Shown piece after piece: positions 3,571 through 46,596 of a stretch of DNA of 64,000 bases. Within the stretch, counting starts at the first letter, position 1. Every line of letters begins with the position of its first letter. This DNA comes from Solirubrobacteraceae bacterium (GTDB lineage Bacteria > Actinomycetota > Thermoleophilia > Solirubrobacterales > Solirubrobacteraceae), in contig DASZGH010000084.1 of NCBI GenBank assembly GCA_035938935.1, positions 10,731-74,730 of the forward strand. The letters run 5' to 3'. A model generated the notes under the pieces. The model did no database searches. It worked only from the letters and a program-made list of their open reading frames with translations, and was not told the origin of the DNA. A program made the translations under genes and the position numbers.

Positions 3571-4581
3571 TCACGCGGCCACCGGTCCACCTCGCGCGTG
3601 CTCGCCTGGGTAAAAGCGGCGGCGGTACTCGGCCGGGCCGACCGCGAGCGCACGTAGGAAGGCGCGGCGCATCGTCTCGGGCGTACCGAAGCCACACACC
3701 CGCGCGATCTCGGCGACCGGGGCTTTGTCGTCCTCGAGCGCGCGGCGAGCGGCCTCCAGACGCACGCTCTCGACGTAGCGGGCCGGGGTCACGCCCGTCT
3801 CGGCGCGGAAGGAGCGCGCGAAGTGGCGCGGGGACATGTGCGCGCGCTCGGCCAGCGCCTCCACCGACAGGTCCCCGCCGGGGTGCTCGACGATGTGGCG
3901 GCGCACCTCGCGCAGCGGCTCGCGCACCGGCTCCTGCGCGGCGAGCGTCGCGCTGAACTGCGACTGGTTGCCGGGGCGGCGCAGGAACAGGACGAGGTGG
4001 CGCGCGATCGTCAGCGCCGCCTCGCGATCGAGGTCTTCCTCGACCAGCGCCAAGGCGAGATCCATGCCGGCCGTCACGCCCGCCGATGTCCACACGTTTC
4101 CGTCGCGCAGGTAGATCGGCTCCGGATCGACTCGCACCGCCGGATACAGGCGCGCGAGCTCGGCCGCCGAGGCCCAGTGCGTGGTGGCACGGCGGCCGTC
4201 GAGCAGGCCCGCCGCCGCCAGCAGGAACGCGCCGGTGCAGACCGAGGCCGTGCGCCGCGCTCGCCGCGAGGCGGCGGCGATCCACTCGAGCGTCGCGGGG
4301 TCGGCGCTGGCCGCGCGCGAGCCGTGGCCGCCAGCCAGGACCAGCGTGTCGATGCGTCGGGGGGCGTCGGCGAAGCCGTGGTGCGGCGTCAACTGCAGAC
4401 CACTCGACGTCTGCAGCGGCTTGCCGTCGCAGCTAACCACCACGACCTCGTAGCCACGGTCGGCGCGACCGGCCACCTCGATCAGCGTCTGCGCCGCCGA
4501 GAAGACCTCGAGCGGGCCGGTTACATCGAGGCTCTGGACCTGGGGAAAGGCGAGGATGGCGACGGTGCGCGGGGATGGCAT
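3571..4581 (-). CDS. GlxA-family transcriptional regulator (DJ-1 domain + AraC HTH)
   Basis: LDVTGPLEVF, SVCTGAF, TSAGVTAGMD, C-terminal AraC double HTH; upstream of its DJ-1 partner. Confidence 0.9.
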   Translation of the reverse strand: MPSPRTVAILAFPQVQSLDVTGPLEVFSAAQTLIEVAGRADRGYEVVVVSCDGKPLQTSSGLQLTPHHGFADAPRRIDTLVLAGGHGSRAASADPATLEWIAAASRRARRTASVCTGAFLLAAAGLLDGRRATTHWASAAELARLYPAVRVDPEPIYLRDGNVWTSAGVTAGMDLALALVEEDLDREAALTIARHLVLFLRRPGNQSQFSATLAAQEPVREPLREVRRHIVEHPGGDLSVEALAERAHMSPRHFARSFRAETGVTPARYVESVRLEAARRALEDDKAPVAEIARVCGFGTPETMRRAFLRALAVGPAEYRRRFYPGEHARGGPVAA

Positions 4582-4654: not shown

Positions 4655-6508
4655 TCAGCCGCGTGGCGCAGCGCTCACACGAGCGGCGCCAATCACGCCA
4701 CCCTGCGCGTCGAGCGCCTGCACGACCAGCACGGGCGGCGCGGCCGAGACCGCGATCGTCGTCTCAAAGCCCGCGCTCGAAACCGTCTTCAGAGGAGCCA
4801 ACCTGGACGCGTCCGGGCCGCCCAGCACTCGCCAGCCGGCGGTCGCGGTCGAGCCGTTCCAGCTGGCGCAGACAAGCGAGACCGCGCTAGACGAGCGGGG
4901 GGCCTGCACAGCTGTCGGGTGGGTCGCCGGGGTCGCACTCCACGTGTACTTGAACGCGGTGTAGGACTGGTACTTGGCCGGCATGCGAGCATCGAACAGC
5001 AGTTCGCCGGTCGCGCTGTATTCCGAAAGGTACGGTTCCTGCCCCCAGCCGACGAACCAGCTGCCATCCGGCAGCGGCTGGAAATCGCCCTGGCTGGGGA
5101 CGACCAGCGGCTTGGGGTGAGCGAAGCTCGAGACGAGCTTCGCTGTCATCGTCCTCGGGTCCAGGCGCAGGACGATCACGCGCGATTGCTTGTGCACCGC
5201 CGGGGTCGCGCCGTTATCGAAGAAGGAGACGGCGCCGGCGCCCTCGACGCGCAGGTCGTGCTGCCAGGCCGGGCTAGCGCCGGGACCCATCCGGAAACTC
5301 GATTCCTTGCCGCCGAGGCGCCAGACCACCTTGCCCGTGCTCGGGTCTATGAAGTAGCCCGCCCACGTGTTGCGCGAGTCGACGAGCAGGTGTTCCCCCG
5401 CTTCGGCGGCGACATTGATGTGAAACCAGTCCCACGGCGAGACTCGTGTGCCGTTCTTTTCCATCGGGACGTAGGAGTCGGACATCGACACGTGGTCCAG
5501 AGCGTGCCACTCGTAACGGACCAGGCCCGTCTTCAAGTCGACCTCCTGCAGCACGGTGTCGGCGACCGCTCCGTCGGCCGGGCCCCCGTAGTGGGAGAGG
5601 TCGCAGCGCACGGCGTCGAACACGGTGAACAGCGCCGTGCCGCGTGGGGCGATCTGGAAGGCGTGGAGGTCGGGCTCGTAGCCATTGCCGGCCCGCACGA
5701 CCTTGATCGTGCGGTAAGAGGTATCGGCGATCACGACCGCGCCATCGCGACGTCCACCGGAGACGTAGGGCTCCTGCCACCACGTCAACACCGGGCGGCC
5801 TTCGTAGCGCTGCACTCGCAGGTTGGCCGCCCTCTCCCCCTTCGGGATCGGCTTGAACCAGACCAGATGGCCCGCGCCGTCGATGATCATCGGGCCGTAC
5901 TGGCCCGGGCCCGCGTAGGGGGCGAGGAACACATACCCGGGCGCACGCGAGGGGCCGCGCGAGACCGTCACCGTCGGCGGGCGCAGGTCCGGGCGCGAGA
6001 CGAAATGCTGCAGTTCGCCGTACTTCGGCGGCGGCGGCGGCGGCGGCGGGGACTCCAGCGAGCGGCTGGTCGAGTCGCGCTCGGCGACTGTGAAACGCCA
6101 CGACACCGGCAGGCGCCGACCTGCACGCAGCAATGTGGCGCGCACGCTGACCTGCTCGCCCTGGTCGAAGAAACGGTCCGGCACGAAGCTGGCGCCATCA
6201 CCCTGCGAGTAGGCGAGCAGACGGCCCGTGTGCCGGCCGCTGCGCGAGCCGGTGACGCTCAGGTCGGCGATCTCGGTAGCCGGCACGCCCAGCAGGCTGA
6301 TCTGCGTTTCGTGCGAGGAGTCGCGCGTGTCCGGACCGGGCGAGACGGTCAGGGCGCCGCCGGCCAGCGCCGCGGAAGCGTTGAGCGTGCGCGGCGCGCA
6401 CGATGGCGCGGGATGCGCTCCGCCGGTCGAGCTGGCCACGGAGACGATCGCCACGACGGCGACGAGCGCCAGCACGCCGGCGCCAGCGCGGGCTCTGCGA
6501 GAGGGCAT
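4655..6508 (-). CDS. Secreted arylsulfotransferase (ASST)-family beta-propeller protein
   Basis: Signal peptide after MPSRR (6508); DWFHINV, WQHDLR, FFDNG, SQGDFQ motifs of ASST-like proteins. Confidence 0.75.
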   Translation of the reverse strand: MPSRRARAGAGVLALVAVVAIVSVASSTGGAHPAPSCAPRTLNASAALAGGALTVSPGPDTRDSSHETQISLLGVPATEIADLSVTGSRSGRHTGRLLAYSQGDGASFVPDRFFDQGEQVSVRATLLRAGRRLPVSWRFTVAERDSTSRSLESPPPPPPPPKYGELQHFVSRPDLRPPTVTVSRGPSRAPGYVFLAPYAGPGQYGPMIIDGAGHLVWFKPIPKGERAANLRVQRYEGRPVLTWWQEPYVSGGRRDGAVVIADTSYRTIKVVRAGNGYEPDLHAFQIAPRGTALFTVFDAVRCDLSHYGGPADGAVADTVLQEVDLKTGLVRYEWHALDHVSMSDSYVPMEKNGTRVSPWDWFHINVAAEAGEHLLVDSRNTWAGYFIDPSTGKVVWRLGGKESSFRMGPGASPAWQHDLRVEGAGAVSFFDNGATPAVHKQSRVIVLRLDPRTMTAKLVSSFAHPKPLVVPSQGDFQPLPDGSWFVGWGQEPYLSEYSATGELLFDARMPAKYQSYTAFKYTWSATPATHPTAVQAPRSSSAVSLVCASWNGSTATAGWRVLGGPDASRLAPLKTVSSAGFETTIAVSAAPPVLVVQALDAQGGVIGAARVSAAPRG

Positions 6509-6594
6509 CGGCAAGGCCGGCAAGGATACGCCGCCGCGCCGGCGGGAAGCGCCGTAGGAGACGCACGCGGCGAATCGACGGTTACCATCAACCG

Positions 6595-7533
6595 ATGGGC
6601 TTAGGCGACACCTCAGAGCGCGTCCGCAGCATCCTCGACGCGGCCGAGCGCGCCGCCCGCGAGCTGCGCGAGCGGGCCGAGCAGCGCGCCGCCGAGCGCA
6701 TCGCCGAGGCCGACCGCGCCGCCGCCAACCGCGTCGAGGCGGCAGAGCGCGAGGCCCAGGAGATCCTCGCCGACGCCCGCGCCCGGGCCGAGCAGGCACG
6801 CAACGAGGCATTGGCCGCCGTCGGCTCGATCCACGCGGAGGCAGAGAGCGCACTGTCGGGCGCCCGCGCGCAAGGCGCAGCGATCACCGTGGAGGCCGAC
6901 GAAAGCGCCCAGCGCACCGTCGAGGCCGCACGCGAGCGGGCCGAGCGCAATCTCGCTGAGGCCGGCGAGAAGGCCGAGCATGCGCTGGCAGACGCCCGCC
7001 AGCGGGCCGACCACACCATCGCCGCGGCGAACGAGCACGCCACACAGACACTCGACTCGGCGCGCGCGCAGGCCCAAGCCACCCTGGCTGCTGCCGAGGC
7101 ACGAGCCGAGAAGACGCTCAATGCCGCTGCCGAACGCGCTCAGCAGGCCACGGCGAACGCGGAGCGTGAGCTCGCCCGGCGTCAGGCCGACGCCAAGGAG
7201 AAGGCCGGCGAGACCCGCGCCAAGGCCCGCTCGGACGCCCGCGAGATCGTCGGCGAGGCGCACGCTCGCGCCCGCGAAGTCCTGCGCGACGGCGAGGAGG
7301 TCTCGCGCAACCTGCGTGACTTGTCGAGCTCGCTACGGACCAATGCCGAGCGGCTGATACGCGACGTGCGGCTGACGCACGGAAGCATGATCGCGCGCCT
7401 GGATCAGGCCGCGCCGGAGGCGGCGAAAACCAGGAGCCCAGTCGAGCAGAGCCGCAGCCCACGCCGGCGGGGCGGCGACCGCGATGAGCCCGGCGACGAT
7501 CTGGACGTGCCAGAGTTCGTTCCGCGTGGCTGA
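6595..7533 (+). CDS. Ala/Glu/Arg-rich coiled-coil protein (DivIVA/FilP-like) with acidic C-terminal peptide
   Basis: Heptad-like AE/AR repeats over about 250 aa; TACCAT -10 box 6 nt before ATG (leaderless); ends DDLDVPEFVPRG. Confidence 0.7.
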   Translation: MGLGDTSERVRSILDAAERAARELRERAEQRAAERIAEADRAAANRVEAAEREAQEILADARARAEQARNEALAAVGSIHAEAESALSGARAQGAAITVEADESAQRTVEAARERAERNLAEAGEKAEHALADARQRADHTIAAANEHATQTLDSARAQAQATLAAAEARAEKTLNAAAERAQQATANAERELARRQADAKEKAGETRAKARSDAREIVGEAHARAREVLRDGEEVSRNLRDLSSSLRTNAERLIRDVRLTHGSMIARLDQAAPEAAKTRSPVEQSRSPRRRGGDRDEPGDDLDVPEFVPRG

Positions 7534-7581: not shown

Positions 7582-7591
7582 CACGGTGCCT

Positions 7592-7664
<73 letters not shown>

Positions 7665-7777
7665 TCGCGGAAGGTCTTGCACGCGGTACCGTTCGAGCCT
7701 CTGAATGCAGGGAACCGCCACTCACGCGGCGTGTCAATCCGGTCGACGTTGATCGTGGATGCCGATATCCCTCGGCG

Positions 7778-8230
7778 CTATCTGTTGGCGAAGAACGACA
7801 GCAGGCAGGTGCCGAAGGTCAGTTCGCCGTCGTTATCGCGCTTGGTGCCTCCGACAGCGAAGACGATGTCCAGCCCCCCGGTCATCGTGTGACCCGCTTG
7901 GTGGATCGTCACTTTGACCGTCGAGACGCCGCCGCTGGTCTTTGGCGTGCTCTTGCCGACGATCCAGTTTGTGTAGCCGCCACGGCTCGTCGTGATCAGC
8001 TTCTGAGTGCCGGAGACGGTGATCGTGCCAGTGCCGCAACCTTCTTCGGGGCCCGGTGTCAAGCGGAGACCGGAGATCGACTTCTGGTTACGACCGACGG
8101 TGAAGCCACCCGTACTCCCGATCTTCCACTTGCCAGCCGCTGGACGCGGGGACGCCGAGCTCGCGAGCGCCACCACCGGAGCGATGACGGCGGGCGCGAG
8201 GACCATAGTGATAAGGCGTCCGGCACGCAT
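7778..8230 (-). CDS. Secreted hypothetical beta-rich protein
   Basis: N-terminal signal peptide, Gly/Thr-rich body, two Cys. Confidence 0.6.
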   Translation of the reverse strand: MRAGRLITMVLAPAVIAPVVALASSASPRPAAGKWKIGSTGGFTVGRNQKSISGLRLTPGPEEGCGTGTITVSGTQKLITTSRGGYTNWIVGKSTPKTSGGVSTVKVTIHQAGHTMTGGLDIVFAVGGTKRDNDGELTFGTCLLSFFANR

Positions 8231-8518
8231 TGGGCGAGTATATGTGGGCGGTCACGCAGTTCGCAAGGGCTGCTTGAGACACGCTGCTTACATCAGCCCG
8301 CCAGGCCAGACCCATTCCCGTCGAGCGAAATGCACTCTCCAGAACCCGCGCGTGGCGGTTCGCGTTAACTTCGGCTGGCTCCGCTGTGGCGAGCAGATGA
8401 TCGGCTTGTACTGCCGCTCCGGTGCCGAGACGTGATGAGTCGCGTGGCGTTCATTCCGGCGTAGGTCAGCCGTCTGCTGTACGGTTCGTCGGCTGGATTC
8501 GCTCTATAAGAACGAGAC

Positions 8519-9103
8519 ATGGCTACTCGAAAGACAAGCAAGAAGTCGCTGCTCAGCGGTAAGTCGCCGGTTCCTGCGGCTGTGCTAGCCGCCGTGATCG
8601 AGAGACCGGGCTACGGCTGGGACGTGGCTAATCGCGCCAAGCGTCGCTTGGGCTCGTCGTGGCGGATCGACCGGAAACACATCTACTCCTACCTAGAGCG
8701 CCTCGAAGACGACGGTCTGGTTCGGTCGCAGAGGGAGCCTGCCGGGCAGAGGGACGAAATGCGCGATGTCTACTACGCGACCGAGAAGGGCGAAGAAGCC
8801 CGCCGGGAGTGGCGCACGATGCCACTCAAACAGGGCGTCATCCCGACCGACTTGGACGTGCGGCTGCTGTTCTCGACCGAGGAGGACATCCCCGACCTCT
8901 TGGAGAGATTCGCTGAACGTGCGGAGCGGATTCTCGAAGAAATCGAGGACGCGGAAGCCGACGAGACGCCTCATGTTTCTTACCTGGCGCTGGTCATCAA
9001 CGCGCAGCGCGCGTCGGTGGAGCGGCGTTTGCGCGCTGAGCTGGAATGGCTGGAGGACACGCGGCGGGAACTTGAACTGGTGCGCGACCAGCTGAGTCGA
9101 TGA
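8519..9103 (+). CDS. PadR-family transcriptional regulator
   Basis: PGYGWDV...HIYSYLERLEDDGLV...YYATEKGEEARREW winged HTH plus helical C-terminus. Confidence 0.85.
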   Translation: MATRKTSKKSLLSGKSPVPAAVLAAVIERPGYGWDVANRAKRRLGSSWRIDRKHIYSYLERLEDDGLVRSQREPAGQRDEMRDVYYATEKGEEARREWRTMPLKQGVIPTDLDVRLLFSTEEDIPDLLERFAERAERILEEIEDAEADETPHVSYLALVINAQRASVERRLRAELEWLEDTRRELELVRDQLSR

Positions 9104-9837
9104 GCCTTCTGGCATTCCGAGGGGTGAGCAAGCGCTTCGTTGACGGTGGCGAGCAGATCACGGTCTTGGATCGCGTCTCTTTCGATATCGAGGCTGGCGA
9201 GACGGTGGGTTTGATCGCTTCGCGTCGAGGCGGCAAGACCACGCTGTTGAAGGTTGCTGCCGGCCTGATCGCGCCCGATGAGGGCAGTGTCTTATGGGAT
9301 GACGTGGAGCTGACGAGCATGAGCTGCGATGAGGTGGCGGTGACTCACCGCGAAGATGGCATCGCCTATGCCCGTGGCGACTGGCGCACTAGCCGTTCGA
9401 TGTCGGTCATGGATTTCATCACCGTCTCGCTGCATGGCGGTGTAGCGACCGGGCAAGAAGCCGAGGATCGCGCCGCCAAGACGCTTGAGCTGCTGGGCGC
9501 GGCACATCTGGCGCGCGGGCGCACGACCAAACTTGGCATGAGCGAGCGCTTGATCGTGGAGTTGGCGCGCGCGGTTGCGCACAAACCGCGCCTACTGCTG
9601 ATGGACGAGCCGGCGGTGCTGCGCAATCCCGACCACGCCAGGGAGTTCTACGAACTGCTGCGCTGCTTGCCGAAGAAGATCGGCTGTGCGCTCTTGATCG
9701 CCTCCGAAGAAATCGCGCCGCTGCGCGGCTGCAAACCGATGATGAACTTGTCTGACGGCAGGTTGACCTCGCCCACGAACAGGCGGAGGGTGATCGAGTT
9801 CCCCGGCGGTCGCTCGCCAGGGAATCGGGCGTCGTGA
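9100..9837 (+). CDS. ABC ATPase-like subunit with degenerate motifs
   Basis: Walker A ASRRGGKTT, signature LGMSE, Walker B LLLMDEP, H-loop ASEE; ATGA overlap with padR. Confidence 0.8.
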   Translation: MSLLAFRGVSKRFVDGGEQITVLDRVSFDIEAGETVGLIASRRGGKTTLLKVAAGLIAPDEGSVLWDDVELTSMSCDEVAVTHREDGIAYARGDWRTSRSMSVMDFITVSLHGGVATGQEAEDRAAKTLELLGAAHLARGRTTKLGMSERLIVELARAVAHKPRLLLMDEPAVLRNPDHAREFYELLRCLPKKIGCALLIASEEIAPLRGCKPMMNLSDGRLTSPTNRRRVIEFPGGRSPGNRAS

Positions 9838-10541
9838 GCACGCTTGAGCTACGGAGCGTTGTCAAGCGCTATGAGGGCGGTGGCGAGACGGTTCATGCGG
9901 TCGATGGGGTTTCGCTCACCGTCGAGTCGGGGGAGTTCGTGGCTCTGTACGGGCCAAGCGGCTCGGGCAAGACCACCCTCTTGATGTTGGCCGCGACGAT
10001 CAAGCTGCCTGACGCCGGCTCGGTCGTGTTCGGCAACCAGGAGCTGACCTGCCTGAGCGGCGACGAGCGCGCAAGATTCCGGCTTGAGAAGACGGGCATC
10101 GTCTTTCAGTCGTTTCACCTATCGCGTGGCGCGACCGCGCTTGAAAATGCGTGCATGAAGTTGTTTGCCACGGACGTGACGATCCGGCAAGCACGGGATA
10201 TGGCTCGGCCGTGGCTCGAGCGGTTGGGCCTTGGGGATCGTCTGGATCGCCGGCCGCCTGAAATGTCGATGGGGGAGCGTCAGCGAGTGGCTATTGCCCG
10301 AGCGCTGGCGAACAAACCGAGCATGTTGCTCGCCGATGAGCCGACCGGCAACCTCGATACCCGCCGCAGCCGGGAAGTCTTGGAGCTGCTGAGAGAGATT
10401 TGTGTCGAGGAGCGCATACCGGTCGTGCTGGTGACACATGACCCGCAGGCCACGGCCTATGTCAATCGCGTGCATACGCTGTGCGACGGCAAGCTCACGG
10501 ACGGCCTAGACCTCGATCTGCAAGTCCCGGTCTTGGGATGA
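9834..10541 (+). CDS. ABC transporter ATP-binding protein (LolD/MacB type)
   Basis: GPSGSGKTT, MSMGERQRVAIARAL, LLADEPTGNLD, VTHD. Confidence 0.92.
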   Translation: MSTLELRSVVKRYEGGGETVHAVDGVSLTVESGEFVALYGPSGSGKTTLLMLAATIKLPDAGSVVFGNQELTCLSGDERARFRLEKTGIVFQSFHLSRGATALENACMKLFATDVTIRQARDMARPWLERLGLGDRLDRRPPEMSMGERQRVAIARALANKPSMLLADEPTGNLDTRRSREVLELLREICVEERIPVVLVTHDPQATAYVNRVHTLCDGKLTDGLDLDLQVPVLG

Positions 10542-13111
10542 GACGCGCACCGCGCATCCCTACACGACCGCGCATCCTGGGGATGACGCCGGCCGGTTTG
10601 TACGCGCTCTACCGAGTGCATTGGCACACCAATCGCGGCTCCGAGCTGATGGCCGGCGCCGGCATCGCCATTGGCGTGTCGCTGGTGTTCGGCGTCCTGG
10701 TCGCCAACAGCAGCATCCTGGGATCGACTCGCGAAGCGATCAACGCCGTCAACGGTTCGGCGTCGCTTGCCCTTGTTGCGCGCTCGCCGGGGGGAGTCGA
10801 TCAGCAGCTCGCGCAGCGTGCCTCGGAACTGCCAGGCGTACAGACGGCCGTGCCGATCCTGCGCCAGAGCGCCGTCATCGAGGGGCCAAGAGGACACATG
10901 CTGGCGCAGCTCGTCGGCGTCAGTCCGCTCATCGTCAGCTTGCGTGGGGCGGCGGTCAAAGACCTTGGTGCTGGCGCGCGGCTGCTGGAAAACGGGGTCG
11001 GGTTGCCGTCGAGCGTGGCGGAAGCGGTCGGCGTCCAAGCCGAAGACAACGCGCGGCTGCTCGTCAACGGCAGCCCACATCTGCTTCGCGTGCAAGCAGT
11101 CCTCGACGCAGGCGCTATCGGTTCGCTGGCGTCGAGCCGGGTGGTCGTGATGCTCCTGGGCAATGCGCAGACGCTTGCCGGTATGCCGGGGCGCGTGACC
11201 CAAGTGCTCGTCAAAACGTATCCGGGTCGCGATAAGCAAGTCGAAGCTGAGTTGCAGCACTTGGCGGGAGGACGAGTCAATGTCGAGCCGGCCAACCACG
11301 AAATTGCGTTGGCCGAAACCGCCCTGACACCGACGAATCAGTCAACGAGCCTGTTTGCGGCGATCTCACTGATGGTTGGCTTTCTGCTGGCGTTCAACGC
11401 CATGCTGCTGACCATGCCCGACCGCCGCTGGCACATGGCGGAACTGCGCGAACAGACGTATACGTCGCGTCAAATCGTTGCCATCCTTGGTTCCCAGGCG
11501 CTTGTCCTGGGGATCGCGGCCTCCGTTGTCGGTGTGCTGGTCGGCTATGTCCTTGCCCGCACCGTCTTTGGGGCGGTGCCGAGCTACTTGGCGACGACGT
11601 TCCCGATCACCGGGCGTCAGTTAGTCAGCATCGTGCCGGTGATCGTCGCCTTCGCCTGCGGGGTGCTGGCGGCCTTCATGGCGGCGATGTCGCCGATCTT
11701 GGACTTGCGCAAGTACCGCGACGTTGACGCGATGATGAGCGAGCCGGGCGAGCCGGGCCAAAACATCACTGGCGAGATAGTGCGCGGGGTGGCTCTGCTG
11801 GGCGTGGCGATCGTGGTCGCCGCTACGCTCATGGTGCTGCTGGACTCGGGGTTGACCATCCTGGGCGGAGTGGCGCTCGCGCTCGCCACGCCTTGTTTCG
11901 TTCCCCTACTTTTTCGTGCAGCAACCGGCGTGCTCGGCTACGTCGCCCACAATTACCATGGGAAAATGTTGGCGGTGGCGGATATCGAATTGAAAGCGAC
12001 CGCCACTCGCTCGGTGGCGCTGGCGTGTATCACGGCGCTGGCGATCTACGGCTCCATCGCCGTCGGCGGGGCGCGCAGCGACCTGATCCACGGACTCGAC
12101 CAGGGCATATCGCAGCAGTGGCATTCGGCGGCGATTTGGATAACGCCGAACGAAAACATTCACGACACTGATAGCTTCGAGGCGCCTGGGGTGGCGTCGG
12201 TGGTTTCACGCACGGCCGGGATCGCGGCAGTCAGCGCCCGGCAGGGCTCCTTCTTGGACGTTGGCTCACACCGGCTTTGGGTACGCGCTGCACCCCCTGG
12301 CAACCCGGCGATGATCCTCTCTAGCCAACTTGAAGATGGCGCGCTCGCTCGCGCAGAGGCTCTGATGCGCCGACCCGGCTGGGCGACCGTATCGAGCGGC
12401 TTTGCTTCCGAACACGGGTTGCGGGTTGGTAGGTCGTTCACGTTGCCGACGCCATCGGGCGTCGTGCCGTTTCGTGTCGCGGCGATCACCACGAACATCG
12501 GATGGCCGCCTGGCACGATCACGCTCAACACCACGGACTACAGCCGCTATTGGCAGAGCGCCAACCCGACAACCCTAGCCGTCGATGTGAGGCCAGGCAC
12601 CATCCCCGCGGCGGGCGTGCGGGCCATCCGTCAGGCGCTCGGACCACGGACGGGGCTACGGGTGCAGACGGCCGACGAACGAATCGCCGAGGTGGAGGCG
12701 ACAGCGCGGCAGGGTCTGAGCATCCTCAACGACGTGTCCAACCTGCTGCTGCTGATCTCGGCCCTGGCGCTCGCCGCTGCGCTGACGGCGACGATCTATC
12801 AGAGACGCGGCCGGCTCGCCTCGCTCAAGGCTCAGGGCTATGTGCGCTGGCAGCTTTGGCGCGGCGTGCTGCTTGAGAGTGCCGTCGTGCTCGGGATCGG
12901 CTGTCTGGACGGCGCGATTCTCGGGTTGTACGGACACGCACTAGCAGACCACTATCTGCGCACAAATACAGGCTTTCCGGCACCGTTCAACATCGGCCTG
13001 GCGCAAATTGCGCTCACGCTGGTGATCGTCGCCGGAGCATCGCTGGTGGTCATCTCAATTCCGGGCTATTCGGCCGCTGGCATTGCCCCCGAGCTGAGCT
13101 TTCAGGAATGA
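10538..13111 (+). CDS. FtsX/MacB-like ABC permease (two repeats)
   Basis: Two sets of TM + large extracytoplasmic domain + 3 TM; ATGA overlap with the ATPase stop. Confidence 0.88.
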   Translation: MRRAPRIPTRPRILGMTPAGLYALYRVHWHTNRGSELMAGAGIAIGVSLVFGVLVANSSILGSTREAINAVNGSASLALVARSPGGVDQQLAQRASELPGVQTAVPILRQSAVIEGPRGHMLAQLVGVSPLIVSLRGAAVKDLGAGARLLENGVGLPSSVAEAVGVQAEDNARLLVNGSPHLLRVQAVLDAGAIGSLASSRVVVMLLGNAQTLAGMPGRVTQVLVKTYPGRDKQVEAELQHLAGGRVNVEPANHEIALAETALTPTNQSTSLFAAISLMVGFLLAFNAMLLTMPDRRWHMAELREQTYTSRQIVAILGSQALVLGIAASVVGVLVGYVLARTVFGAVPSYLATTFPITGRQLVSIVPVIVAFACGVLAAFMAAMSPILDLRKYRDVDAMMSEPGEPGQNITGEIVRGVALLGVAIVVAATLMVLLDSGLTILGGVALALATPCFVPLLFRAATGVLGYVAHNYHGKMLAVADIELKATATRSVALACITALAIYGSIAVGGARSDLIHGLDQGISQQWHSAAIWITPNENIHDTDSFEAPGVASVVSRTAGIAAVSARQGSFLDVGSHRLWVRAAPPGNPAMILSSQLEDGALARAEALMRRPGWATVSSGFASEHGLRVGRSFTLPTPSGVVPFRVAAITTNIGWPPGTITLNTTDYSRYWQSANPTTLAVDVRPGTIPAAGVRAIRQALGPRTGLRVQTADERIAEVEATARQGLSILNDVSNLLLLISALALAAALTATIYQRRGRLASLKAQGYVRWQLWRGVLLESAVVLGIGCLDGAILGLYGHALADHYLRTNTGFPAPFNIGLAQIALTLVIVAGASLVVISIPGYSAAGIAPELSFQE

Positions 13112-13159
13112 CCAGCCGAGCCGTGCGGCAGGCCGGGTACACACGCCACGCTGTTCGCT

Positions 13160-14248
13160 GTGAGATCTTCAACCGCGCGCAGTGTCGTCGCCTTCGTCTC
13201 GGCTGCCCGCCGTTACTGGCTTGGTGTCTTTCCGGTCGTCCGGCACGAGATTCGCCGGCTACACCGCTGTGCGCGTGGCATCCCCGACCCGGCGCTGCGC
13301 GCGCTGGCCTTCGACGCGCAGAAACGCAAGTGGGCAAGCCTTGAGGGCGCGGCGGCGTTCGCTGTCTTCACTCCCCGCTTAGGCCGCTTCTCCCTTGCCC
13401 GCCTGCTGGTTGACCTCCAAGGTGTCTTCGACTACGCCGACACGCTCATGGAGCAACCGAGTCGCTTTCCGGTCGCCAATGCTCGCCAGTTGCACAACGC
13501 CTTTGTTGTCGCCCTGCAACCCGAGCTGCCGCACGCTGACTACTACCGGCATCACGCGCAGCGTGACGACGGCGGCTACCTCGTCGAGCTGATCGACGGC
13601 TGCCGGGCGGCGATCTGCGCCCTGCCGTCCTACGCCGTCGTGGCAGATGTCGTGCTGCGTCATGCCTGGCGCATCGTCTTCTACCAGAGTCGGATCAACC
13701 TGGCGACCGCTGGCGATCATCCGGCGCTCGCCCGCTGGGCCAGCAAACAGCCGGCCGGCTCGCAGCTCAAGTGGTGGGAGCTGGGCGCGGCATGCGGCTC
13801 GTCGCTGGCGATCTTCGCGCACCTGGCGGCTGCCTCCGATCCAACCTTGACGCAGCGGGAGGTTGAGGCCATCGAGGCGCTGTACTGGCCGTGGGCCGAG
13901 GCGCTGCACATCATGCTCGACAGCCTCATCGACCGCGCCGAAGACTGCGCGACTGACCAGCTCAACCTACTCGACTACTACGCCTCGCAGGATGAAATGG
14001 TCGAACGGCTCGGCCTGTTGGCCTGCGAGATGGTCAGGCGGGCGGAGGCCGTGCCGCCGCATCATCGACTGATCCTGGCGGCAATGGTGGCGCTGTACCT
14101 TTCCGACGAGCAGGCGTGGACTCCCTCGGCTCGTCCGGCTACCGAACGCATCTTGGAAGCCACTGGCACGTTTGCCCGCCCGGCGCTGTTGCTACTGCGT
14201 CTGCGGCGCATGGCGCTCAGGTCCGAGCGAAATCTGATCGCGGCATAG
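13160..14248 (+). CDS. Tetraprenyl-beta-curcumene synthase (YtpB/DUF2600)-family terpene synthase
   Basis: FDYADTLMEQP acidic motif, DDGGYLVEL, WWELGAACGSSL, LHIMLDSLIDRAED, QLNLLDYY. Confidence 0.8.
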   Translation: MRSSTARSVVAFVSAARRYWLGVFPVVRHEIRRLHRCARGIPDPALRALAFDAQKRKWASLEGAAAFAVFTPRLGRFSLARLLVDLQGVFDYADTLMEQPSRFPVANARQLHNAFVVALQPELPHADYYRHHAQRDDGGYLVELIDGCRAAICALPSYAVVADVVLRHAWRIVFYQSRINLATAGDHPALARWASKQPAGSQLKWWELGAACGSSLAIFAHLAAASDPTLTQREVEAIEALYWPWAEALHIMLDSLIDRAEDCATDQLNLLDYYASQDEMVERLGLLACEMVRRAEAVPPHHRLILAAMVALYLSDEQAWTPSARPATERILEATGTFARPALLLLRLRRMALRSERNLIAA

Positions 14249-14307
14249 CCGCGTTGGGACTAGGGGCAGCGTAGCCTTTCCAAAGACTGAGACGCACTCC
14301 ATCATGC

Positions 14308-14583
14308 GTGGGCATGACGACAGATGGAGACAGCGAGAAACCGTCAGTCCGCCTCGGCCTTGAGGCGCTAGCGCAGTTCGAGAGCGCCGACGTCGAGCTC
14401 GACGGAACCGCCATCGGGCGACTGACGGGCGTGTCCTGCTCCACGGCGCGGGACTGCCTGGCTGACCTCTCGCGCTTTGGGTACGTCGTCGCCGGGGAGG
14501 ACGGGGGATATCGGCTGGTGGGGGACTCGCCGGGCGCACACGCTCGCCGTGATGGGGGCAGCTCGGCCGGCGCGTCGGCGTGA
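14308..14583 (+). CDS. Stand-alone IclR-type winged HTH protein
   Basis: SVRLGLEALAQF...IGRLTGVSCSTARDCLADLSRFGYV...GYRL. Confidence 0.65.
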   Translation: MGMTTDGDSEKPSVRLGLEALAQFESADVELDGTAIGRLTGVSCSTARDCLADLSRFGYVVAGEDGGYRLVGDSPGAHARRDGGSSAGASA

Positions 14584-15404
14584 GCCGAGCACCCTCTCAC
14601 AGCGGCAACGGTGGCAAGCGACAACCGCCTCATTCGACGCTGCTACGGCAGCCGCAGCCGTCGAAGTCATTGCAGGCGGCGATGGCGATTCCGCTCGTGT
14701 TCGCCCGACCCAGCCGAGCGTGCGGCGCGGCGGAAATGGCCGATCTCATCCGCCTCAGACCGGGCCGCGTCTTCGCGCGGCTCGGTCAGCCGCACCTATC
14801 CAGCGACGTGCTGGCGACGCGCCTTGCCGATCCCGGTGGCTCGTTGACTGCTGCGATGCAGAGGACGGAGCCGGTCCGAGAAGTCCTCGAGGAGCTATTC
14901 GAGGCGACCGGCTACACGGTCTGTATGGGCGCGCTCAATGACCGCAGCGTCGCCTACCTTCATCGACTCTACGGGCGTGACCGCGCTCAGCGTTTCATCA
15001 ATCAGGAAGTGAGTCTTGGCTCGCGCGCCCCGCTCTACTGCACGGCGCTCGGCAAGGCGCTGCTGGCGAGCTTGTCCGAGCCGTGGCGTCGCCGTCTACT
15101 GTCGCAAATCGACTTCATTCCGCAGGGGCCGCGCTCGTATGCCGCGGCGGATGAGCTGCTGGCCGAGCTGGCGACTTTGGATGACCAGGAGCCGGTCGTC
15201 AGCGATGAGGAGTACATCGCCGGCGCGCGCTCTATCGCGGTGTGCGTGCAGCGAACGCGTGACGAGCAGCCCATCGCCATTGACGTGACTGTGCCCGTCG
15301 AGGACTTCACGGTTCAAGAGCTGGTTGAGATGGTCGGGCCAAGTGTGAAGTACGCCGCGAACCGCATTGCGCAGATCGAGGCCAAAGGGCTACAGACCGA
15401 CTAG
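14580..15404 (+). CDS. IclR-family regulator with divergent HTH
   Basis: C-terminal effector domain GSRAPLYCTALGKALLA...DEEYIAGARSIAV; weak N-terminal SKSLQAAMAI...GAAEMAD. Confidence 0.8.
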   Translation: MSRAPSHSGNGGKRQPPHSTLLRQPQPSKSLQAAMAIPLVFARPSRACGAAEMADLIRLRPGRVFARLGQPHLSSDVLATRLADPGGSLTAAMQRTEPVREVLEELFEATGYTVCMGALNDRSVAYLHRLYGRDRAQRFINQEVSLGSRAPLYCTALGKALLASLSEPWRRRLLSQIDFIPQGPRSYAAADELLAELATLDDQEPVVSDEEYIAGARSIAVCVQRTRDEQPIAIDVTVPVEDFTVQELVEMVGPSVKYAANRIAQIEAKGLQTD

Positions 15405-15468
15405 CCGCGCCGGAACTAACGTCGGCATAGCCTTTTCACCAGCTTTCATCTGAGGCACGATCCAGCGC

Positions 15469-15966
15469 GTGACGAGCAAGGGGGACGCACCGAAAACGAT
15501 CGAGGCGCTTGACGCGGACGTGCTTCGCGCCCGCCGATCCGTAATCCTTGCCAAGCGGCGGGCGCGCAAACTCGCCAAACCGCTCTACATCAACACTAAG
15601 GCCGCGTGGCAAGGCGGGGTGGCCGGGCTAGCGTATGTCAGTGCCTCGCTCGGCGACCGCACAGCCCTGGTCGCCTGCGGTGGCCAGACCGAGGCGGAAC
15701 ACCATGCGCTGCTCATGGCGATGGTGGACGCCGAGGAATGCGAGCTGCCCGGCAATATCGAGTTCCGCTTGGACTCAGGCACCCTGGCCGATCTCGACGC
15801 CGGCCGGACACCCGAGCTGGTCGAGCTACGCAAACGGGTGATCGACATGCTTGCCCGCCATCCAGCGTGGAGATTGGAGTGGGTTGAGCGACGACGGAAC
15901 TGGATCGCCAGTGCTCCGGCACGACGGACGCTGAGTCAATGGGAGAACCACGCGGATGGGAGCTAA
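15469..15966 (+). CDS. RNase H-like fold protein, probably degenerate
   Basis: YINTKA...GLAYV, TEAEHHAL, EFRLDS, LEWVERRRN pattern parallels RNase HI. Confidence 0.55.
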   Translation: MTSKGDAPKTIEALDADVLRARRSVILAKRRARKLAKPLYINTKAAWQGGVAGLAYVSASLGDRTALVACGGQTEAEHHALLMAMVDAEECELPGNIEFRLDSGTLADLDAGRTPELVELRKRVIDMLARHPAWRLEWVERRRNWIASAPARRTLSQWENHADGS

Positions 15967-16030
15967 GGCTTCCTCGCTGCTCGACCTGGACGATGAGCAG
16001 AAACATCTTTCGCTAGTGTTCGATACCAGA

Positions 16031-45447: not shown

Positions 45448-46596
<1,149 letters not shown>

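What the first reader, a model, noticed from the sequence alone, without database searches (positions are those of the whole stretch)
6595..7533. Coiled-coil protein ending in an FtsZ-tail-like peptide (DDLDVPEFVPRG)
Seen: about 250 aa of Ala/Glu/Arg coiled coil, a basic disordered linker, then terminal DDLDVPEFVPRG. Known: actinobacterial FtsZ ends in a DDLDVPxF-type peptide that docks on SepF and other division partners. Inference: a non-tubulin filament carrying an FtsZ-tail mimic could compete for or recruit SepF, acting as a division scaffold or inhibitor. I know of no description of this architecture.
Basis: partly seen in the sequence, partly recalled or inferred. Interest (0 to 1): 0.62.

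Follow-up and report, generated by a model that had tools for sequence, protein, structure and literature searches.

The report
Helical protein carrying second FtsZ's tail
A soil actinobacterium (Solirubrobacteraceae) encodes an undescribed rod-like helical protein that ends in the same short docking peptide as the organism's second FtsZ cell-division protein, so it probably shares that FtsZ's binding partner, though no binding has been tested.

Summary
Window 6595-7533 (+) encodes a 312-aa protein: about 270 residues of Ala/Arg/Glu-rich helix, a 28-residue basic disordered linker, and the terminal peptide DDLDVPEFVPRG.

The tail is the best-conserved part of a family of at least 353 clusters; Pro306 and Phe308 are invariant, while the helical middle varies by 0-150 residues and the linker by 20-100.

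The main refinement is which FtsZ the tail resembles. This class carries two FtsZ paralogues. The dcw-cluster FtsZ1 ends in DVPPFLR. FtsZ2 is N-terminally extended and ParA-coupled, and in this order it ends in D-V-P-E-F-x-P. The helical protein carries the FtsZ2 form. In the whole six-frame translation of the genome, [DE][VI]PEF[VILM]P occurs exactly twice, in FtsZ2 and in this protein, and both times it ends two residues before the stop.

The family is found only in Solirubrobacteraceae, in 78 of 151 genomes, so it looks like an accessory factor. No Pfam, NCBIfam, PDB or literature match describes it.

Most likely it docks through its tail onto the receptor of the FtsZ2 tail. SepF is the only known candidate in this genome, and FtsA is absent. 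Binding, oligomeric state and localisation are untested.

The parts
6583..6588 (+). TACCAT, a -10-like promoter box 6 nt upstream of the ATG; it suggests a leaderless mRNA
   Evidence: Read from the sequence. The same TAC[CG]AT box lies 6-10 nt before the start codon in L026, L027, L029, L009 and L008. It is also visible as a conserved 'YH'/'YD' two codons before the start in over-extended homologue calls.
6595..7533 (+). CDS of the helical tail-bearing protein (312 aa plus stop)
   Evidence: third-position GC 0.856; 49 homologues in the word-indexed search and 547 in the exhaustive search.
6613..6780 (+). Conserved N-terminal helical block (residues about 7-62; invariant I13, A17, E18, A21, E29, R35, I36, E38, R41, R46, A49, A50, E53)
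   Evidence: Alignment A1; helix at pLDDT above 90.
6781..7230 (+). Variable Ala/Glu/Arg helical insert (residues about 63-212); 0-150 residues long across homologues
   Evidence: Alignment A1 columns 200-345. This stretch is the source of the sub-threshold Apolipoprotein, DivIVA_Wag31 and ATP-synthase-b hits.
7231..7410 (+). Conserved C-terminal helical block (residues about 213-272; invariant R216, G233, L243, S246, N250, L254, D257, H262)
   Evidence: Alignments A1 and A4. Used alone as an HMM, it finds a single copy in 78 of 151 genomes of the family.
7411..7494 (+). Basic, disordered linker (residues 273-300)
   Evidence: pLDDT below 50. Length varies from about 20 to 100 residues with no sequence conservation across homologues. 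The tail pattern lies 43-235 nt downstream of the C block in 37 genomes.
7495..7530 (+). FtsZ2-type C-terminal peptide DDLDVPEFVPRG (residues 301-312; P306 and F308 invariant, P310 at least 90% conserved)
   Evidence: It shares the core D-V-P-E-F-x-P with this genome's FtsZ2 (C105), ending two residues before the stop in both. It also matches FtsZ2 tails of relatives.

Best explanation
The gene encodes a cytoplasmic, elongated all-helical protein: a rod about 18-20 nm long, or a helical hairpin of about that length. A flexible basic linker of variable length ends in a short linear motif that is the docking peptide of the lineage's second FtsZ paralogue (FtsZ2). The most likely mechanism is motif sharing. 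The tail occupies the same pocket on the same receptor as the FtsZ2 tail. This would bring the helical protein to sites where FtsZ2 is anchored, where it could act as co-scaffold or cross-linker. At high levels it could instead compete with FtsZ2 for the anchor. SepF is the leading candidate receptor. It is the only known FtsZ-tail binder encoded here, FtsA is absent, and Corynebacterium SepF grips the DLDV segment and the conserved Pro of its FtsZ tail. The strongly conserved N- and C-terminal helical blocks would hold the protein's own function, such as self-association or a second partner. The gene is present in only about half of the family's genomes, so it is an accessory modulator, not a core component. 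Shown: architecture, conservation, motif identity with FtsZ2, phyletic nesting. Inferred: any binding, the receptor's identity, oligomerisation, localisation, and whether the effect is positive or negative.
For: 1. Tail conservation. In 29 aligned homologues P306 and F308 are invariant and P310 is at least 90% conserved, while the middle and the linker vary freely. Of 40 further 50%-identity representatives read, all but two (one without the motif at its end, one with IPEY) end in [DE][VI]P[ED]F.
2. Motif identity with FtsZ2. This genome has FtsZ1 ...DDEIDVPPFLR, FtsZ2 ...SDRDVPEFMPNF and this protein ...DDLDVPEFVPRG. Baekduia soli has FtsZ1 ...DDDIDIPPFLR, FtsZ2 ...AADLDVPEFLPRR and the homologue ...DEDFDVPEFVPGRR. 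FtsZ2 of other families in the order ends ...GDLDVPEFIPRR...SIDVPEFVPGR...ELDVPEFVPGK and ...ELEVPEFVPGG.
3. Specificity. [DE][VI]PEF[VILM]P occurs only twice in the six-frame genome, both times ending two residues before a stop.
4. Family-wide enrichment. The matching DNA pattern gives 202 hits against 18 in the reversed control across 151 genomes of the family.
5. Derived character. The P-E-F-x-P form is confined to this order: 15 of 22 genomes of sister families have a hit, while hits in other orders are near control level, and the long FtsZ ORFs read there have canonical tails. The helical protein occurs only inside that order, in family f1.
6. FtsZ-like layout of structured part, disordered variable linker and terminal peptide.
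7. [quoted passage not shown]
8. SepF is the essential FtsZ anchor in actinobacteria lacking FtsA and binds the DLDV segment and the conserved Pro of the FtsZ tail (PMC8178401).
Against: No interaction was tested or modelled; the tools here could not model a complex. The gene is not next to any division gene. It sits in a housekeeping stretch, leuS - DJ-1/AraC regulator - this gene ... rsfS-nadD-proA-proB-obg. FtsZ1-type and FtsZ2-type tails differ consistently while only one sepF exists, which argues for a second, unknown receptor, or at least weakens SepF specifically. The protein is missing from about half of the family's genomes although FtsZ2 is universal, so FtsZ2 does not need it. The two AlphaFold2 models disagree: a hairpin for the 312-aa protein and a single 145-residue helix for a 172-aa homologue. 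Shape and oligomeric state are therefore open.
Confidence: 0.55

Rival explanations
1. The shared peptide is a proteolysis or turnover signal, not a scaffold-docking motif. In this reading both FtsZ2 and the helical protein are delivered by their tails to the same unfoldase or protease, as the E. coli FtsZ C-terminus is one of the ClpXP recognition sites.
For: The motif is C-terminal, exposed on a disordered linker and shared by two otherwise unrelated proteins. Literature found (PMC3983244) places a ClpXP recognition site at the E. coli FtsZ C-terminus.
Against: The conserved positions (acidic-x-acidic, V/I, P, x, F, hydrophobic) are those used by FtsZ tails for partner docking (PMC8178401). 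Nothing here links the motif to Clp. FtsZ1 would then need a separate explanation for its different conserved tail.
Confidence: 0.1
2. The tail is an independent short linear motif for a partner unrelated to FtsZ biology, and its likeness to the FtsZ2 tail is convergent or coincidental.
For: The motif is short, with 7 defined residues. The gene has no division-gene neighbours. Acidic-Pro-Phe tails exist in other systems, for example the SSB C-terminus (my own knowledge).
Against: The match extends to the derived, order-specific P-E-F-x-P form, to the acidic residues before it and to the distance from the stop codon. The family arose only inside the lineage whose FtsZ2 already had that form. 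Unlike the SSB tail, the Phe is not the terminal residue.
Confidence: 0.15
3. It is simply a DivIVA/Wag31-like or ATP-synthase-b/V-ATPase-stalk-like coiled-coil protein, as some database names say, and the tail has no particular role.
For: Source names on homologues include 'vacuolar-type H+-ATPase subunit H', 'F0F1-type ATP synthase subunit b' and 'DivIVA'. There are weak hits to DivIVA_Wag31 (40 bits), ATP synthase b (35 bits) and Pfam DivIVA (15.8 bits).
Against: All hits are far below the curated cut-offs (260, 131 and 28 bits) and fall in the variable Ala/Glu/Arg insert, so they reflect composition. There is no DivIVA N-terminal domain, no transmembrane helix and no atp-operon context. 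True DivIVA proteins of sister families (L015, L016) lack the tail. The tail is the most conserved element.
Confidence: 0.05

Closest known systems
C-terminal tail of bacterial FtsZ (disordered C-terminal linker plus conserved C-terminal peptide, consensus D-[IV]-P-x-F-[LIM]; docks on SepF, FtsA, ZipA, ZapD, MinC and others)
   Same: It has the same three-part end: a structured body, a disordered linker of variable length and sequence, then a conserved acidic-[VI]-P-x-F-hydrophobic peptide at the extreme C-terminus. Pro and Phe are invariant. The peptide is identical in its core to the tail of this lineage's own FtsZ2.
   Different: The body is an Ala/Arg/Glu helical rod, not a tubulin/FtsZ GTPase. 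It has no Tubulin or FtsZ_C domain, so it is not an FtsZ.
Coiled-coil FtsZ-associated proteins (ZapA/ZapB, EzrA, GpsB, DivIVA/Wag31, SepIVA)
   Same: It is a cytoplasmic, elongated helical protein plausibly linked to the division machinery.
   Different: It has no sequence or fold match to any of them. Those proteins bind FtsZ or its partners through folded domains, and none is described as carrying FtsZ's own docking peptide (my own knowledge; literature searches found none).
Corynebacterium glutamicum SepF-FtsZ tail complex (6SAT/6SCP; tail peptide DDLDVPSFLQ)
   Same: The tail here (DDLDVPEFVPRG) matches that peptide at DDLDVP-F. This genome's SepF core aligns to those chains.
   Different: The residues after Phe differ (V-P-R-G against L-Q), and the residue between Pro and Phe is Glu. 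Binding to this organism's SepF is untested.
Haloarchaeal FtsZ1/FtsZ2 with SepF
   Same: It is a two-FtsZ system with a single SepF, in which tail recognition decides which paralogue is anchored.
   Different: It is a different domain of life with a different tail motif (GID). No third, non-FtsZ tail-bearing protein is described there (PMC8178401).

Membership tests
FtsZ conserved C-terminal peptide (as a motif class) | Lies at the extreme C-terminus, after an intrinsically disordered linker of variable length | tested here: met
   Residues 301-312 follow a linker with pLDDT below 50. The linker is 20-100 residues long and unconserved across homologues.
FtsZ conserved C-terminal peptide (as a motif class) | Consensus acidic-x-acidic-[IV]-P-x-F-hydrophobic, with near-invariant Pro and Phe | tested here: met
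   The peptide is DDLDVPEFV. P306 and F308 are invariant in 29 sequences, and the motif is kept in all but 2 of 40 further representatives.
FtsZ conserved C-terminal peptide (as a motif class) | Matches the tail of the FtsZ of the same organism | tested here: met
   The core DVPEFxP is shared with FtsZ2 of the same genome and with FtsZ2 of Baekduia soli and four other genomes. The match to FtsZ1 (DVPPFLR) is weaker.
FtsZ conserved C-terminal peptide (as a motif class) | Binds an FtsZ-tail receptor (SepF, FtsA, ...) | not testable with these tools
   No complex prediction or experiment was available. SepF is present and FtsA is absent.
FtsZ/tubulin family | Tubulin/FtsZ GTPase domain (PF00091) and FtsZ_C domain (PF12327) | tested here: not met
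   P0001 has no such hit, whereas FtsZ2 (P0051) scores 150.6 and 106.7 bits.
DivIVA (PF05103; NF050102 DivIVA_Wag31) | N-terminal DivIVA domain scoring above the curated cut-off | tested here: not met
   Pfam gives 15.8 bits against a cut-off of 28, at residues 188-248. NCBIfam gives 40.3 bits against 260, at residues 90-192. True DivIVA proteins of sister families begin FT[IF]xRKGYDxxEV and lack the tail.
F-type ATP synthase subunit b / V-type ATPase stalk subunits (E, G, H) | Score above cut-off, N-terminal membrane anchor (subunit b), and a gene in an ATPase operon | tested here: not met
   Best score is 35.5 bits against a cut-off of 131. The N-terminus MGLGDTSERV is not hydrophobic. Neighbours are a DJ-1/AraC regulator, an arylsulfotransferase-like gene and tRNA-Ala.
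Scy/FilP-type actinobacterial coiled-coil cytoskeleton (PF28068, NF041483) | Score above cut-off and the characteristic long repeat architecture | tested here: not met
   NF041483 gives 10.4 bits against 1040. PF28068 is on record for only 3 of 49 homologues and was not reproduced by the scan.
SSB-type acidic C-terminal tail (D-D-D-I-P-F at the very end) | Phe is the terminal residue, and an OB-fold body is present | tested here: not met
   Four residues follow Phe308, and the body is helical.

The most novel reading that the evidence does not exclude
Solirubrobacterales may run a second, FtsZ2-centred cytoskeletal module, made of a ParA-like ATPase and an N-terminally tagged FtsZ2 whose tail has diverged from that of the division FtsZ1. 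In this reading, Solirubrobacteraceae then evolved a dedicated rod-shaped protein that carries FtsZ2's own docking peptide. It would be a natural, chromosomally encoded FtsZ-tail mimic on a cytoskeleton-like body. As a multivalent co-scaffold or decoy, it would tune how much FtsZ2 is anchored, through a receptor that tells FtsZ2-type tails from FtsZ1-type tails.
Probability: 0.3. Interest if true: 0.8.

Novelty: new variant of a known kind. Interest (0 to 1): 0.66.

Why it matters
FtsZ's C-terminal peptide is the hub through which the division ring is anchored and regulated. In the literature I searched, only FtsZ itself carries it. A conserved non-FtsZ protein with the same peptide would show that the hub can be shared or competed for by motif mimicry, which would be a simple regulatory principle. 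It would also be a ready-made natural probe for finding what reads the tail of the poorly understood second FtsZ of the Thermoleophilia. That class is abundant in soil, and I found no cell-division study of it in the held library. The prediction can be tested directly with peptides and one or two purified proteins.

Tried and rejected
1. Family assignment. Pfam, NCBIfam and PHROGs gave only sub-threshold, compositional hits. PF28068 ('Scy'), on record for three homologues, was not reproduced.
2. Structure-based assignment. Foldseek against the PDB gave no hit at E <= 0.001, only generic long helical hairpins: chemoreceptor signalling domain, Smc coiled coil, RipA N-terminal coil. A profile search against PDB sequences gave a designed helical bundle and V-ATPase subunit G at E of about 0.002-0.009.
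3. 'Conserved base plus variable tip' hairpin model. The 312-aa model is a hairpin, but a 172-aa homologue is predicted as one continuous helix. I do not rely on the hairpin.
4. Gene-neighbourhood link to division. None was found; the synteny is housekeeping.
5. Whole-protein HMM across the class. Low-complexity candidates saturated the first-look filter (13 scored of 30-60), so absences were unreliable. I replaced it with a 64-residue C-block model, for which all or most candidates (up to 41 per genome) were scored.
6. Python access to loci of other genomes.
7. Literature. No paper in the held library contains 'DVPEF' with FtsZ, discusses FtsZ in Thermoleophilia, or describes a non-FtsZ carrier of the FtsZ C-terminal peptide.
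8. SSB-like tail and membrane-targeting helix were considered and rejected on sequence: the Phe is not terminal, and the peptide is acidic, not amphipathic.

Full report
**1. What is there**

Window 6595-7533 (+) is an intact ORF of 312 codons plus stop. It ends ...RRRGGDRDEPGDDLDVPEFVPRG. Residues 1-272 are 27.6% Ala, 14.7% Arg and 13.6% Glu, and third-position GC is 0.856, as expected for a real gene in this roughly 70% GC genome.

AlphaFold2, run with a 29-sequence alignment, predicts helices 3-125 and 128-272 at pLDDT about 90. Residues 273-300 are disordered, with pLDDT below 50.

The longer in-frame extension from 6403 is Arg-rich and overlaps the divergent arylsulfotransferase-like gene. 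The start at 6595 is supported by TACCAT at 6583-6588, 6 nt before the ATG. The same TAC[CG]AT box lies 6-10 nt before the start in five homologous loci. That is the layout of a leaderless actinobacterial mRNA; this last point is an inference from general knowledge.

tRNA-Ala(GGC) follows at 7591-7666.

**2. No known family**

Pfam, NCBIfam and PHROGs give only sub-threshold hits:

| Model | Score (bits) | Cut-off (bits) |
|---|---|---|
| Apolipoprotein | 19 | 90 |
| Pfam DivIVA | 15.8 | 28 |
| NCBIfam DivIVA_Wag31 | 40 | 260 |
| ATP synthase subunit b | 35 | 131 |
| Scy | 10 | 1040 |

These hits lie mostly in the variable Ala/Glu/Arg stretch, so they reflect composition. Foldseek against the PDB gives nothing at E <= 0.001, only generic long helical pairs. 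A profile search against PDB sequences gives nothing meaningful. Database names on homologues ('V-ATPase subunit H', 'ATP synthase b', 'DivIVA', 'hypothetical') are of the same compositional kind.

**3. The family and its conservation pattern**

A word-indexed search found 49 homologues. An exhaustive HMM search of 1.84 billion cluster representatives found 547 at E <= 1e-3, 353 at E <= 1e-10 and 118 at E <= 1e-30. The alignment shows five zones:

- a strongly conserved N-terminal helical block, with 13 invariant positions between residues 13 and 53;
- a helical insert of 0-150 residues;
- a strongly conserved C-terminal helical block (R216, G233, L243, S246, N250, L254, D257, H262 invariant);
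- an unconserved linker of about 20-100 residues;
- the terminal peptide [DE]-[LF]-[DE]-[VI]-P-[ED]-F-x-P, with P306 and F308 invariant and P310 at least 90% conserved.

Of 40 further representatives read, 38 keep the [DE][VI]P[ED]F motif. One lacks it at its end, one has IPEY, and one carries two copies in tandem. The tail is the most constrained element.

**4. Which FtsZ tail?**

The genome (2.8 Mb, 113 contigs; the window is C84:10731-74730) encodes two FtsZ paralogues.

- FtsZ1 (C59, 361 aa) lies downstream of an ORF I take to be ftsQ (not checked) and ends ...EIGDDEIDVPPFLR.
- FtsZ2 (C105, about 510 aa) has a roughly 155-residue N-terminal extension and ends ...VSDRDVPEFMPNF.
- Their cores are 55% identical.

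The helical protein's DVPEFVP matches the FtsZ2 form. In the complete six-frame translation (5.59 million residues), [DE][VI]PEF[VILM]P occurs exactly twice, in these two proteins, and both times it ends two residues before the stop. With a looser motif, only FtsZ1, FtsZ2 and this protein score among 19,015 ORFs.

The same pattern holds elsewhere:

| Genome | FtsZ1 tail | FtsZ2 tail | Homologue tail |
|---|---|---|---|
| Baekduia soli | DDDIDIPPFLR | AADLDVPEFLPRR | DEDFDVPEFVPGRR |
| G169 (sister family) | not read | GDLDVPEFIPRR | none found |
| G119 (sister family) | not read | SIDVPEFVPGR | none found |
| G194 (sister family) | not read | ELDVPEFVPGK | none found |
| G179 (sister family) | not read | ELEVPEFVPGG | none found |

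The sister-family FtsZ2 tails are indistinguishable from the helical family's own tails (DLDVPEFVPRG, DFEVPEFVPGRR, ELEVPEFIPRG). More than 120 close FtsZ2 clusters exist; all 17 that were read end in SD[RMLE][DE]VPEFIPNF.

**5. Phyletic nesting**

- Two FtsZ paralogues are present in nearly all of 201 sampled genomes of the class.
- A DNA pattern for [DE][LIVMF]P[DE]F[LIVMF]P gives 202 hits against 18 in the reversed-pattern control across 151 genomes of the own family. Hits per genome: 74 genomes with one, 53 with two, 7 with three or more, 17 with none.
- In the class-wide sample, all 14 own-family genomes have at least one hit and 7 have two or more. In 15 of the 22 sister-family genomes the hit is of the [DE]VP[ED]F type; four of these were checked and are FtsZ2.
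- Other orders are near control level, apart from an unrelated ELPDFLP motif. The long FtsZ ORFs read in other orders have canonical tails: LDVPSFLRDD, LEIPPFIRQ..., LEVPPFLR, LELPPFLRR.
- A specific 64-residue HMM of the C block finds the helical protein, almost always single-copy, in 78 of 151 genomes of the family. That is 49 of 95 high-quality genomes and 33 of 51 genera.
- Of the 52 hits that can be cross-checked, 37 have the strict tail pattern 43-235 nt downstream on the same strand. The rest belong to clades with variant tails such as VPEFHPGRR, which the pattern cannot match.
- Whole-protein hits in sister families are true DivIVA proteins without the tail.

So the P-E-F-x-P tail is a derived character of FtsZ2 in this order. 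The helical protein arose, or acquired the tail, inside that lineage, and it is dispensable in many members.

**6. Candidate receptor**

The genome has one SepF (173 aa). It has an N-terminal amphipathic helix, and its core aligns to solved SepF structures including 6SAT. There is no FtsA above cut-off; the best hit is MreB, at window 45448-46494.

In actinobacteria lacking FtsA, SepF is the essential FtsZ anchor. In the Corynebacterium complex it grips the DLDV segment of the tail, and the near-universal Pro directs the rest to the dimer interface (PMC8178401).

The present tail, DDLDVPEFVPRG, contains DLDV, P and F in the same spacing. SepF is thus the leading candidate. However, the consistent difference between FtsZ1-type and FtsZ2-type tails, with a single sepF, is equally compatible with a second, unknown receptor.

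**7. Context**

The gene lies in a conserved housekeeping stretch: lepA - murJ - rpsT - holA - leuS - DJ-1/AraC regulator - this gene ... rsfS - nadD - proA - proB - obg. No division gene is adjacent. In this genome an arylsulfotransferase-like gene is inserted between the regulator and the gene.

FtsZ2 sits elsewhere, overlapping the end of a ParA/MipZ-like ATPase gene and next to a divergent ArsA-like ATPase gene. That arrangement is conserved in relatives. Earlier notes of this scan report the same coupling on other genomes; I treat them as leads and confirmed the arrangement independently here.

**8. Mechanism**

Shown: the architecture, the conservation pattern, identity of the tail with the FtsZ2 tail, its uniqueness in the genome, and the phyletic nesting.

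Inferred: the tail docks on the receptor of the FtsZ2 tail. The helical body, probably oligomeric, would then be recruited to FtsZ2 anchoring sites as a co-scaffold, or would compete with FtsZ2 for them.

The shape is uncertain. The 312-aa model is a hairpin, but a 172-aa homologue is modelled as a single 145-residue helix.

Rivals are a shared degradation signal, an unrelated partner with a convergent motif, or a generic coiled-coil protein. I rate these at 0.10, 0.15 and 0.05.

**9. Novelty**

No match was found in curated families, solved structures or the held literature. Earlier AI notes of this scan report FtsZ-tail-like peptides on unrelated proteins in other phyla. They are unchecked leads, but they suggest the phenomenon may recur.

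I file this as a new variant of a known kind, namely an FtsZ-hub accessory protein, with an unprecedented means of plugging in. Interest is 0.66.

Noticed in passing
Own genome contig C105:5093-7385 (outside the window; locus L002 covers part of it): The second ftsZ (FtsZ2) overlaps the stop of a ParA/MipZ-like ATPase gene by about 14 nt. FtsZ2 begins with a near-invariant peptide, KRASMREGPLAALFRKTE, followed by a roughly 140-residue disordered extension. A divergent ArsA-like ATPase gene lies upstream. The arrangement is conserved in relatives (L032, L033). Two FtsZ paralogues occur in almost all of 201 genomes of the class.
   Followed up: partly
window 6583-6597: A conserved TAC[CG]AT box lies 6-10 nt before the start codon in this gene and in five homologous loci. 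This suggests a leaderless transcript. Three loci also share a TTGC(G/A)G box about 19 nt further upstream.
   Followed up: partly
window 4655-6508 (-): A secreted arylsulfotransferase-like protein (PF14269, 163 bits) with a poly-Pro stretch sits between the DJ-1/AraC regulator (3571-4581, -) and the helical-protein gene. In syntenic loci L027 and L029 the regulator and the gene are direct neighbours, so this gene looks like an insertion.
   Followed up: no
window 7591-7666 and 8000-16000: tRNA-Ala(GGC) lies 58 nt after the stop codon. The following roughly 8 kb (PadR, ABC ATPases, FtsX-like permease and further genes) has lower GC (0.63-0.66 against 0.69-0.71). This is compatible with an island inserted next to the tRNA.
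   Followed up: no
window 7778-8230 (-): A 150-aa ORF has a lipoprotein-like N-terminus (MRAGRLITMVLAPAVIAPVVALASSAS...) and no Pfam match.
   Followed up: no
window 45448-46494 (-): This is MreB (PF06723, 506 bits). The organism therefore has an MreB-based elongation system besides two FtsZ paralogues and one SepF, and no FtsA.
   Followed up: yes
Protein P0207 (361 aa, metagenomic homologue): It carries two copies of the tail motif in tandem at its end (...DELGVPDFISIGNATERDFDIPEFLS), a naturally bivalent variant.
   Followed up: no
Pattern hits in other genomes of the class (e.g. G003:C2:572208, G115:C1:2083595, G089:C1:1009402): A recurrent E-L-P-D-F-L-P coding motif (GAGCTGCCCGACTTCCTGCC) appears once per genome in many families of the class, but not in this genome. 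The protein that holds it was not identified.
   Followed up: no
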